Source of the DNA: a virus
IMG/VR virus record: IMGVR_UViG_3300023184_000034
Coordinates: 1-64,000 of that record
Reading direction: 5' to 3' (one strand)
Length of the DNA stretch: 64,000 nt
A program made the translations under genes and the position numbers. Below the pieces are notes generated by a model. It was not told the DNA's origin and did not search any database. It was given only the letters and a program-made list of their open reading frames with translations. This document shows positions 28,912-29,348 of the stretch, in pieces (positions within the stretch are counted from its first letter, which is position 1; each line of letters starts with the position of its first letter).

Positions 28912-29348
28912 GTTCTTCGCTTTCGCTCGAACTACTTTCATTTCTTAGAACAATCAACTGCGAAGCAGTTTTAATATTATCTAGATTGTGTAGTCACACT
29001 TAGCCCTTGCGGGCAAAGTTATTTGAACATTATCTGAGTTGAGCAGTTCACTTAGCGTTTGCACTACAAGTATTTCTACTAGCTTAGGCGGTTATCCGGT
29101 ACCTAATCATGCTGTCTTATCACAACGGCGGCACACACTCATACGCTAACATGCGTGTGTACGTGGGGAGTATTCCCCTCTTTTAGCCTTTTAAAATCTT
29201 TTCAAACAGCAAAATCAGTTGAGTGAAGGCATATCTGATCGTCGTCCTGTAAAGGATAGTTGCTGAGTACTCCTAACGGCTGGAGAATTTCCCTCCCTGC
29301 GATCCGAGATCCAGGTATACGGGCACATGAAATTGGCGTGTGCTTGCT
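28892..29348 (-). ncRNA. Candidate large structured non-coding RNA (~455 nt), family not recognised
   Basis: No ORF >=60 aa. At least 10 hairpins whose loops read GCAA, GAAA or UUCG-like on the minus strand, e.g. GCCC-GCAA-GGGC, AGAAGAAC-GCAA-GTTCTTCT, AGTA-GAAA-TACT, AACTGCTTCGCAGTT. Also GGGGA-ATAC-TCCCC and long-range complementarities. Confidence 0.7.

What the first reader, a model, noticed from the sequence alone, without database searches (positions are those of the whole stretch)
29052..29240. Long-range pairings and probable pseudoknots within the candidate RNA
Seen (minus-strand RNA): loop TTAGCGT (29143-29149) is the exact complement of ACGCTAA (29052-29058) about 90 nt downstream. 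GCTGTTT (29204-29210) can pair with AGACAGC (29111-29117). AGCAA..TTGCT closes a multiloop holding TCCT/AGGA and ATCAG/CTGAT. Loop GCCTT can pair with downstream AAGGC. Inference: a tertiary-folded, ribozyme-scale architecture rather than a string of terminators.
Basis: partly seen in the sequence, partly recalled or inferred. Interest (0 to 1): 0.7.

Follow-up and report, generated by a model that had tools for sequence, protein, structure and literature searches.

The report
Knotted core of twin-box phage RNA

Summary
All the strings are at the stated coordinates. In this one sequence they are no more than chance gives: 7 complementary 7-mers against 4.7±2.7 in shuffles. Comparison with 133 related phage loci decides.

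- TTAGCGT/ACGCTAA is a real pseudoknot. All 7 pairs show compensatory changes and 96.6% of cells are paired.
- Loop GCCTT/AAGGC is moderately supported.
- The AGCAA/TTGCT multiloop is the 3' part of Rfam RF01718 (Polynucleobacter-1, 106.7 bits).
- GCTGTTT/AGACAGC is not supported. GCTG belongs to the covarying multiloop helix, and AGC(AT) pairs locally.
- A further pseudoknot, GUUGU/AUAAC, ties the strand after the hairpin into the invariant GGUACCGGAYRACCGCC loop.

The whole element (28889-29348, minus strand) is about 455 nt, with 14 helices and at least 3 pseudoknots. It ends in a covarying hairpin followed by U's.

Its 3' domain carries two direct "twin boxes" that change in lockstep with identical letters. 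No partner was found.

It usually follows a 145-aa SegE-like GIY-YIG gene. It also occurs behind a PDDEXK nuclease gene, or with no nuclease gene. The nuclease occurs without the RNA in four cultured phages.

This scan has met the same RNA family before on other DNA. Function unknown.

The parts
28889..29348 (-). Whole structured RNA, about 455-460 nt. It starts right after the TAA stop (29351-29349) of the SegE-like gene and ends at the P14 hairpin followed by UUU.
   Evidence: Conserved at 67-84% identity in over 40 loci up to about 28890, then conservation is lost. Covariation of the full model. MFE -125.2 kcal/mol, z -2.24.
29204..29348 (-). 5' domain, which is Rfam RF01718 Polynucleobacter-1 (P1-P6).
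   Evidence: cmscan gives 106.7 bits against a gathering score of 37, E 4e-22, model positions 1-141 of 141.
29207..29211 (-). 3' strand of multiloop-closing helix P4 (UGCUG). It pairs with CAGCA 29265-29261. U29204 also pairs with A29268.
   Evidence: helix 6: 95.3% paired and 5 of 5 pairs have double changes; 29268/29204 is AU in 96 sequences and UA in 10.
29213..29240 (-). Hairpin P6 (GAUCAG/CUGAUU), with the loop that holds GCCUU.
   Evidence: helices 9-10: 97% paired. It is part of the RF01718 model.
29226..29230 (-). Pseudoknot PKA, 5' strand (GCCUU in the P6 loop). It pairs with AAGGC 29190-29186.
   Evidence: Moderate support: helix 11, and (GCU/AGC and ACC/GGU double changes; 0 of 2000 permutations reach the observed count).
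29186..29190 (-). Pseudoknot PKA, 3' strand (AAGGC in the A-rich linker).
   Evidence: As for the 5' strand.
29165..29178 (-). Hairpin P7 (GGGGA/UCCCC).
   Evidence: helix 13: all 5 pairs have double changes; 64% paired in the MAFFT columns, where the G-run register is ambiguous. Recovered in the single-sequence fold.
29133..29160 (-). Hairpin P8, 10 bp, with the loop GUUAGCGU.
   Evidence: helix 14: 10 of 10 pairs have double changes, 90.3% paired.
29143..29149 (-). Pseudoknot PKB, 5' strand (UUAGCGU in the P8 loop).
   Evidence: helix 15: 7 of 7 pairs have double changes, 96.6% paired (for example GC 111 / AU 20, CG 108 / UA 24, GC 101 / AU 30, UA 55 / AU 43).
29052..29058 (-). Pseudoknot PKB, 3' strand (ACGCUAA).
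   Evidence: helix 15. Mutual-information ranks.
29122..29126 (-). Pseudoknot PKC, 5' strand (GUUGU, right after the invariant GCCGCC). It pairs with AUAAC 29095-29091.
   Evidence: helix 16: 97.1% paired; UA 75 / CG 56, and GC 81 / AU 42 / GU 10. Third-strongest covarying pair.
29085..29105 (-). Hairpin P10 (UAGG/CCUA). Its 13-nt loop holds the near-invariant core GGUACCGGAYRACCGCC (29103-29087) and the PKC 3' strand.
   Evidence: Invariant columns. helices 18-19 (AU 99 / UA 32).
29061..29112 (-). Helix P9 closing the P10 region: GCAU 29112-29109 with GUGC 29064-29061 in this window. It also holds a lineage-specific GNRA hairpin, 29080-29069.
   Evidence: helix 17: 92% paired, with GC 50 / CG 47 / UA 21. 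The insert hairpin covaries by eye (AGUA-GAAA-UACU, AGCA-GAAA-UGCU, GGUA-GCAA-UACC).
29111..29117 (-). In fact it is a near-invariant AAGAC followed by the P9 5' strand.
   Evidence: One search shows no covariation with 29204-29210. Invariant columns.
29027..29041 (-). Twin box R1 (NNACUC-RNAURAW).
   Evidence: It carries the same letters as R2 in 128 of 129 sequences at 29035/28982, with about 30 changes on the tree.
28974..28988 (-). Twin box R2 (NNAUCU-RNAURAW).
   Evidence: As for R1. The CUC (R1) versus UCU (R2) difference is fixed, in 129 of 129 and 128 of 129 sequences.
28999..29018 (-). Hairpin P11 (GCCC-GCAA-GGGC), between the twin boxes.
   Evidence: helix 20. The pair 29015/29002 ranks high.
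28958..28968 (-). Hairpin P12 (CUGC-UUC-GCAG).
   Evidence: helices 21-22: 82-85% paired, all pairs with double changes. It also reads as a terminator-like site on both strands.
28892..28932 (-). Hairpins P13 (GAAA loop) and P14 (8 bp, GCAA loop, then UUU), the likely 3' end.
   Evidence: helix 26: 95% paired, 8 of 8 pairs with double changes; helix 25: 97%. Conservation ends here.
29349..29786 (-). 145-aa SegE-like GIY-YIG nuclease gene directly upstream. It is a neighbour, not shown to be a partner.
   Evidence: Pfam PF19835, E 4e-32. GIY, YIG, R93, E109 and N126 are invariant. 96 of 103 RNA loci found independently of the protein carry it.

Best explanation
Positions 29052-29240 are the hinge of one large non-coding RNA (minus strand, about 28889-29348).

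Shown by comparison with relatives:
- The RNA has a 5' domain, which is the catalogued Polynucleobacter-1 motif.
- It has a central core built from hairpins P7, P8, P9 and P10.
- It has a 3' domain with two identical single-stranded 'twin boxes', each followed by a hairpin, and a final hairpin followed by U's.
- Three long-range pairings knot these parts together. The P6 loop pairs with the A-rich linker (GCCUU/AAGGC). The P8 loop pairs with the strand just before the first twin box (UUAGCGU/ACGCUAA). The strand after P8 pairs with the loop of P10 (GUUGU/AUAAC), next to invariant GCCGCC, AAGAC and GGUACCGG..ACCGCC.

Inferred, not shown:
- The RNA is transcribed at the end of the leftward gp47-gp46-nuclease unit and stops at its own terminal hairpin.
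- It acts in trans as a rigid scaffold that presents the two identical boxes to one shared partner, probably by base pairing.
- The small nuclease genes in front of it are neighbours, not obligate partners. They may be homing-type genes sitting beside a conserved target, or interchangeable recombination nucleases.
For: - Rfam hit to the 5' domain.
- The whole gap is conserved in over 130 distinct phage loci.
- Covariation of 96 pairs, with 0 of 500 shuffles reaching the observed values and slid controls at 37-43% paired.
- PKB and PKC are among the strongest covarying pairs in an unbiased all-against-all mutual-information scan.
- The terminal hairpin P14 covaries at all 8 pairs, and conservation ends after it.
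- The twin boxes carry the same letter at five positions, with roughly 10-30 changes each on a tree built without those columns.
- The RNA is found behind a PDDEXK_15 nuclease gene in L235, L219 and L277, and with no nuclease gene in L261.
- Nuclease homologues in four cultured phages have no RF01718 match at E up to 0.1, and in three of the four there is little or no gap after the gene.
Against:
- No own promoter was identified. The only sigma-70-like site lies inside the nuclease ORF, at 29593-29565.
- No partner for the twin boxes was found in this 161-kb contig or in two relatives that are at least 99% complete. 'Presented to a shared partner' is therefore a deduction from the identity coupling alone.
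- The shuffle control does not correct for relatedness, although the slid-partner control does.
- The alignments are MAFFT alignments, not structure-guided, so loop regions (PKA, P3, P7, P13) are under-counted.
Confidence: 0.85

Rival explanations
1. The RNA is the cofactor or guide of the adjacent minimal GIY-YIG nuclease, making an RNA-nuclease system like TnpB or IscB with their omega RNAs.
For: The RNA starts one base after the stop codon of a 145-aa catalytic-domain-only GIY-YIG protein with intact motifs. The linkage holds in 96 of 103 loci found by an RNA pattern alone.
Against: - The RNA occurs behind an unrelated PDDEXK_15 nuclease gene in 3 loci, and with no nuclease gene in L261.
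- Homologues of the nuclease (35-48% identity) in Melnitz, ACP17, phiM12 and S-SRM01 have no RF01718 match.
- No residue of the nuclease tracks the twin-box state: at most 0.26 of 1.07 bits.
- The boxes vary at only a few positions, unlike guides.
Confidence: 0.06
2. It is a string of independent terminator or stabiliser hairpins between convergent genes, with no higher-order fold.
For: The gap lies between convergent units: the minus-strand nuclease gene and the plus-strand hub gene ending at 28670. P7, P12 and P14 resemble terminators on one strand or the other. The single-sequence z-score is modest, at -2.24.
Against: Long-range pairings 44-97 nt apart covary (PKA, PKB, PKC). Single-stranded joiners are invariant across over 130 loci. 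The 5' third matches a curated multi-helix family.
Confidence: 0.03
3. It is a ribozyme, self-cleaving or otherwise catalytic.
For: The size, several pseudoknots, GNRA loops and invariant single-stranded core nucleotides are typical of catalytic RNAs.
Against: There is no match to any Rfam ribozyme or intron family, even at E up to 10 over 28600-29500. No interrupted gene flanks it. Non-catalytic large RNAs share the same general features.
Confidence: 0.08
4. The twin-box identity is kept by a DNA-level copying process, such as slippage, unequal exchange or gene conversion between the 28-nt direct repeats. On this reading no molecule reads both boxes.
For: The boxes sit in longer, imperfect direct repeats (AAGUG...box). 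One relative, L205, has a deletion that joins the two repeat units. T4-like phages recombine intensely (general knowledge).
Against: The CUC/UCU and G/A differences inside and beside the boxes stay fixed in 128-129 of 129 sequences, while the neighbouring letters are homogenised. The sequence between the boxes is not in linkage with them: the next-best mutual-information partner scores 0.2 against 0.96. The spacing varies from 45 to 65 nt.
Confidence: 0.12

Closest known systems
Polynucleobacter-1 RNA motif (Rfam RF01718; Weinberg et al. 2010, Genome Biol 11:R31, PMC2864571)
   Same: Positions 29204-29348 match the whole 141-position model at 106.7 bits. As in the paper's supplement, the RNA lies downstream of a small gene of the GOS11034 / P-SSM2_218 kind and comes from freshwater sequence.
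   Different: The Rfam model stops at 29204. The conserved, covarying RNA runs about 310 nt further (P7-P14, PKA, PKB, PKC, twin boxes), and that part matches no Rfam family at E up to 10. The paper rated the motif as likely cis-regulatory. Here no gene follows it on its strand.
Large ornate bacterial and phage RNAs of unknown function (GOLLD, ROOL, raiA, OLE)
   Same: Size of several hundred nt, many covarying helices and pseudoknots, phage association, and no known function (the comparison is from general knowledge; the cryo-EM preprint 10.1101/2024.12.08.627333 was listed but not read).
   Different: No sequence or structure match to these Rfam families. No neighbouring tRNA genes. The twin identical boxes have no counterpart that I know of in those RNAs.
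Transposon-encoded guide RNAs beside their nucleases (TnpB or IscB omega RNA, HEARO)
   Same: A structured RNA abuts the end of a small nuclease gene.
   Different: The nuclease is a GIY-YIG protein, not RuvC/HNH. The RNA and the nuclease each occur without the other. There is no hypervariable guide segment.

Membership tests
Rfam RF01718 Polynucleobacter-1 | Covariance-model score at or above the curated gathering score of 37 bits, over the full model | tested here: met
   106.7 bits, E 4e-22, model positions 1-141 of 141, at 29204-29348 on the minus strand. The same hit was found in the whole contig.
Rfam RF01718 Polynucleobacter-1 | The model's helices, including the multiloop with two inner hairpins, are kept by compensatory change | tested here: met
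   P1 96.3% paired; P2 about 80%; the closing helix 95.3% with 5 of 5 pairs showing double changes; P6 97%. P3 is poorly aligned, at 54.6%.
Rfam RF01718 Polynucleobacter-1 | Lies downstream of a GOS11034 / P-SSM2_218-like gene (Weinberg 2010 supplement) | tested here: met
   A SegE-like ORF ends at the RNA start here and in 96 of 103 independently found loci. Identity of that ORF with GOS11034 itself was not tested.
Self-splicing introns and known self-cleaving ribozymes (Rfam families) | A match to a curated covariance model | tested here: not met
   No such family appears at E up to 10 over 28600-29500, on either strand.
GOLLD / ROOL / raiA / OLE / HEARO | A match to a curated covariance model | tested here: not met
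   Only RF01718 and RF02980 pass in the window. Nothing else credible appears in the local E-value scan.
RNA-guided nuclease system | The nuclease and the RNA always co-occur and co-vary | tested here: not met
   The RNA occurs with a PDDEXK nuclease or with none. The nuclease occurs without the RNA in four cultured phages. There is no residue-to-box covariation.
Intrinsic terminator (P14 only) | A G+C-containing hairpin followed by a run of U's at the end of the transcript | tested here: inconclusive
   P14 is an 8-bp covarying hairpin (helix 26), but it is followed by only UUU-A. The consensus scan did not call it. No transcript ends are available.

The most novel reading that the evidence does not exclude
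The twin boxes are the working part of a new kind of phage riboregulator. A rigid, triply knotted scaffold holds two copies of one freely evolving 7-13-nt word. Either both copies pair with a single unknown nucleic-acid partner (host-encoded or antisense), or they serve as donor and acceptor sites for polymerase realignment. Alternatively, the two boxes pair with each other as a parallel-stranded helix of like-with-like bases, which would be unprecedented in a natural RNA.
Probability: 0.12. Interest if true: 0.85.

Novelty: new variant of a known kind. Interest (0 to 1): 0.6.

Why it matters
Polynucleobacter-1 has sat in Rfam since 2010 as a 141-nt orphan motif rated as possibly cis-regulatory. 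These data show it is only the first third of a large knotted RNA that is widespread in uncultured T4-like phages of lakes. That places it among the few bacterial or phage RNAs of ribozyme-like complexity with no known function.

The pairings verified here (PKA, PKB, PKC) give a concrete secondary-structure map for building a full covariance model, for probing and for cryo-EM.

The same-letter coupling of the twin boxes is a kind of constraint that ordinary base-pair covariation methods do not look for. It points to a specific experiment: find what reads the boxes.

Tried and rejected
- GCTGTTT/AGACAGC pairing: rejected. Its bases are accounted for by P4, by A29268-U29204 and by P9.
- A third segment inside the RNA that covaries with the twin boxes: none. 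The best corrected mutual information is 0.2-0.28.
- A complement or extra copy of the boxes in this 161-kb contig: none. In six relatives, two of them at least 99% complete, there are only scattered hits at the level of the reversed-pattern control.
- A reverse transcriptase gene in the contig, to test a template-jump reading: none found, but the contig is only 44% complete.
- An endless ORF across the box-to-box unit: by eye there are stop codons on both strands. This was not formally computed.
- Residues of the SegE-like protein tracking the box state: none.
- blastn of the whole gap against 50,697 deposited phage genomes: no match.
- A scan of bacterial genomes with the 15-base core pattern: it returned only chance hits in G+C-rich genomes, because the pattern was too short. 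That scan was wasted.
- Duplex-energy permutation for PKA: not significant, with 64 of 200 permutations at least as good, because the GCC/GGC core is shared. The exact-complement test was used instead.
- An apparent 28985/28977 pair: an artefact of one unrelated row.
- RNAalifold on A2: in the part of the output that was seen, it recovered P1, P4, P6, P7, P8 and P10. The output was cut, so it is not used further.

Full report
**What is there.** The window is the first 64 kb of a 161-kb IMG/VR viral contig. It is a T4-like myovirus:
- a gp20-type portal at 20643-22370;
- SbcCD-like gp47/gp46 at 30084-32875;
- a baseplate-hub gene at 27843-28670 on the other strand.

Between the stop codon of a 145-aa SegE-like GIY-YIG gene (29349-29786, minus strand; Pfam PF19835, E 4e-32) and the convergent hub gene lies a stretch with no minus-strand ORF of 40 aa or more. 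Rfam places its family RF01718, the Polynucleobacter-1 RNA, at 29204-29348 on the minus strand. The score is 106.7 bits against a gathering score of 37, over the full model. The finding (29052-29240) therefore covers the last third of that motif plus about 150 nt that no Rfam family matches, even at E up to 10.

**The observation.** Taken alone they prove little. The 189-nt stretch holds 7 complementary 7-mers with at most one G-U, shuffles give 4.7 ± 2.7, and 22% of shuffles reach 7. The question had to be settled with relatives.

**Relatives.** A search with the SegE-like protein returned 80 viral loci. blastn showed that the whole gap, not just the Rfam part, is conserved at 67-84% identity down to about 28890, where conservation stops. 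A DNA pattern for the invariant core (AGAC..GGTAYMGG...ACCGCC) brought in 120 more loci, independently of the protein. After removing duplicates, 133 sequences plus the window were aligned (A2). Three or four of those rows are unrelated pattern hits.

**The pairings.** An all-against-all mutual-information scan, with no structure given, put the following among the top pairs:
- the Rfam multiloop helix;
- hairpin P8;
- a pairing nobody had proposed, 29124/29093 and 29123/29094.

I then wrote a full model of 14 helices and 4 pseudoknots and counted it on A2.
- Overall, 85.2% of cells are paired, against 71.2% in shuffles and 37-43% when partners are slid by 1-3 columns. No shuffle out of 500 reaches the observed value on any of the five measures.
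- PKB (UUAGCGU 29149-43 with ACGCUAA 29058-52) has double changes at all 7 pairs and is 96.6% paired.
- PKC (GUUGU 29126-22 with AUAAC 29095-91, in the loop of P10) is 97.1% paired. Its counts include UA 75 / CG 56 and GC 81 / AU 42.
- The multiloop-closing helix (CAGCA 29265-61 with UGCUG 29211-07) is 95.3% paired, and all 5 pairs covary.

**The rejected pairing.** Tested alone, GCTGTTT/AGACAGC behaves like noise. Its covariation score is 0.081, against 0.072 in shuffles. It is 74.1% paired, against 73.9%. When G29207 changes, C29114 never follows. The bases are otherwise engaged:
- GCUG is the 3' strand of the multiloop helix.
- U29204 pairs with A29268 (AU 96, UA 10).
- AAGAC is invariant.
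- AGC(AU) pairs locally with 29064-61. That helix is 92% paired, with GC 50 / CG 47 / UA 21.

**The loop GCCUU with AAGGC (PKA).** This pairing is harder to score, because the P6 loop comes in two length classes and MAFFT aligns it badly (60.7% paired). Read sequence by sequence, linkers with AAGC go with GCU(U) loops, linkers with AGGU go with ACCU loops, and most GGC linkers go with GCC loops. About ten sequences with GACC loops and GGC linkers are exceptions. The loop contains the exact complement of its own linker triplet in 86 of 122 sequences, and 2000 permutations never exceed 85. The AGC/GCU association gives Fisher p = 1e-5. These tests do not correct for relatedness, so I rate PKA as moderately supported.

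**The whole RNA.** The element is about 455-460 nt (28889-29348). Its 3' end is an 8-bp hairpin with a GCAA loop followed by UUU. That hairpin covaries at all 8 pairs (helix 26). GNRA and UUCG-like loops cap most hairpins. The single-sequence fold gives -125.2 kcal/mol with z = -2.24 and recovers P2, P6, P7, P8, P11, P12 and P14.

**The twin boxes.** In the 3' domain, two single-stranded segments share one pattern: R1 at 29041-29027 and R2 at 28988-28974. They change in lockstep with the same letter, not the complementary one.

| Positions | Counts |
|---|---|
| 29035 / 28982 | A/A 64, G/G 64, discordant 1 |
| 29034 / 28981 | G/G 115, C/C 8, A/A 5 |
| 29031 / 28978 | A/A 88, G/G 40 |
| 29029 / 28976 | U/U 113, A/A 11, G/G 4 |

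- On a tree built without these columns, the states change about 30, 10, 14 and 11 times.
- CUC in R1 against UCU in R2 is a fixed difference.
- No third column of the RNA covaries with the boxes.
- The contig holds no other copy or complement.
- Two relatives that are at least 99% complete show only control-level hits.
- No reverse transcriptase gene was found.
- No residue of the neighbouring nuclease tracks the box state.
- The spacing between the boxes varies from 45 to 65 nt.

I found this coupling before looking at earlier notes of the scan. Those notes describe the same 'twin-box, extended Polynucleobacter-1' RNA in many other phage contigs, also with no reader found.

**Relation to the nuclease gene.** Of 103 loci found by the RNA pattern with enough upstream sequence, 96 have the SegE-like ORF ending at the RNA start. 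Three others (L235, L219, L277) have a PDDEXK_15 endonuclease gene instead. In L219 an RNase H gene lies between that gene and the RNA. L261 has a divergent copy of the RNA with no nuclease gene in front, and its twin boxes are still identical. In the other direction, homologues of the nuclease at 35-48% identity occur in cultured phages. Four were examined: Methylophilales phage Melnitz, Acidovorax ACP17, Sinorhizobium phiM12 and Synechococcus S-SRM01. None has an RF01718 match, and three of the four have little or no gap after the gene. The protein keeps the GIY, YIG, Arg, Glu and Asn motifs. I read the nuclease genes as neighbours, not obligate partners of the RNA. They may be homing-type genes parked beside a very conserved sequence, or interchangeable recombination nucleases of the gp46/47 module.

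**How it most likely works.** PKA ties the catalogued domain to the linker. PKB ties the P8 loop to the strand that leads into the first twin box. PKC locks the invariant core. What is inferred: transcription with the leftward gp47-gp46-nuclease unit, termination at P14, and action in trans as a scaffold that offers two identical words to one partner. No expression data could be obtained.

**Novelty.** The 5' third has been known since 2010 (PMC2864571). I found no paper and no Rfam family describing the remaining two thirds, its pseudoknots or the twin boxes. The scan itself has met this family repeatedly.

Noticed in passing
window 15731-15812 (-): Rfam RF02980 (freshwater-2, cis-regulatory) matches at 75.7 bits, against a gathering score of 49.9. 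It lies just upstream of the 341-aa gene at 14708-15733 and ends at that gene's AUG. This is the 'three-hairpin leader' noted elsewhere on this window.
   Followed up: partly
L235:3963-4484, L277:8819-9385, L219:1198-1719: In three relatives the gene in front of the RNA is a PDDEXK_15 (PF24608) endonuclease instead of the GIY-YIG gene. In L219 an RNase H gene (749-1168) lies between it and the RNA.
   Followed up: partly
L261:8395-8885: A divergent copy of the RNA lies behind a 649-aa amidoligase-like gene, with no nuclease gene in front. Its twin boxes differ from the usual ones (AGUUGAA) but are still identical to each other.
   Followed up: partly
L205:8259-8748: One relative lacks the PKB 3' strand, box R1 and hairpin P11. 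The deletion joins the two AAGUG...box repeat units, as exchange between the direct repeats would produce.
   Followed up: no
window 29069-29080 (-): A small GNRA hairpin (AGUA-GAAA-UACU) is inserted inside P9. It is present only in the window and about eight relatives (L016, L053, L072, L203, L222, L234, L271), and it covaries (AGCA/UGCU, GGUA/UACC).
   Followed up: no
window 29256 and 29244 (-): A strong non-Watson-Crick covariation lies next to hairpin P5: U/C in 87 sequences against C/U in 38. It is linked to the loop type (UUUACA or GAAA). Either way the helix keeps one A-C mismatch.
   Followed up: no
window 29565-29593 (-): A sigma-70-like site (TTGACA, 17 nt, TATGGT; 10 of 12 matches) lies inside the SegE-like ORF, about 220 nt upstream of the RNA start. 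It could drive the RNA on its own. Its conservation was not examined.
   Followed up: no
window 28956-28970 and 29165-29178 (+): Read on the plus strand, hairpins P12 and P7 are followed by T-runs. They could also stop transcription coming from the convergent baseplate-hub gene.
   Followed up: no
window 29119 with 29015/29002 (-): U29119, in the AUAAGAC joiner, covaries with the base pair 29015-29002 of hairpin P11 about 105-117 nt away. This is a possible base triple or docking contact.
   Followed up: no
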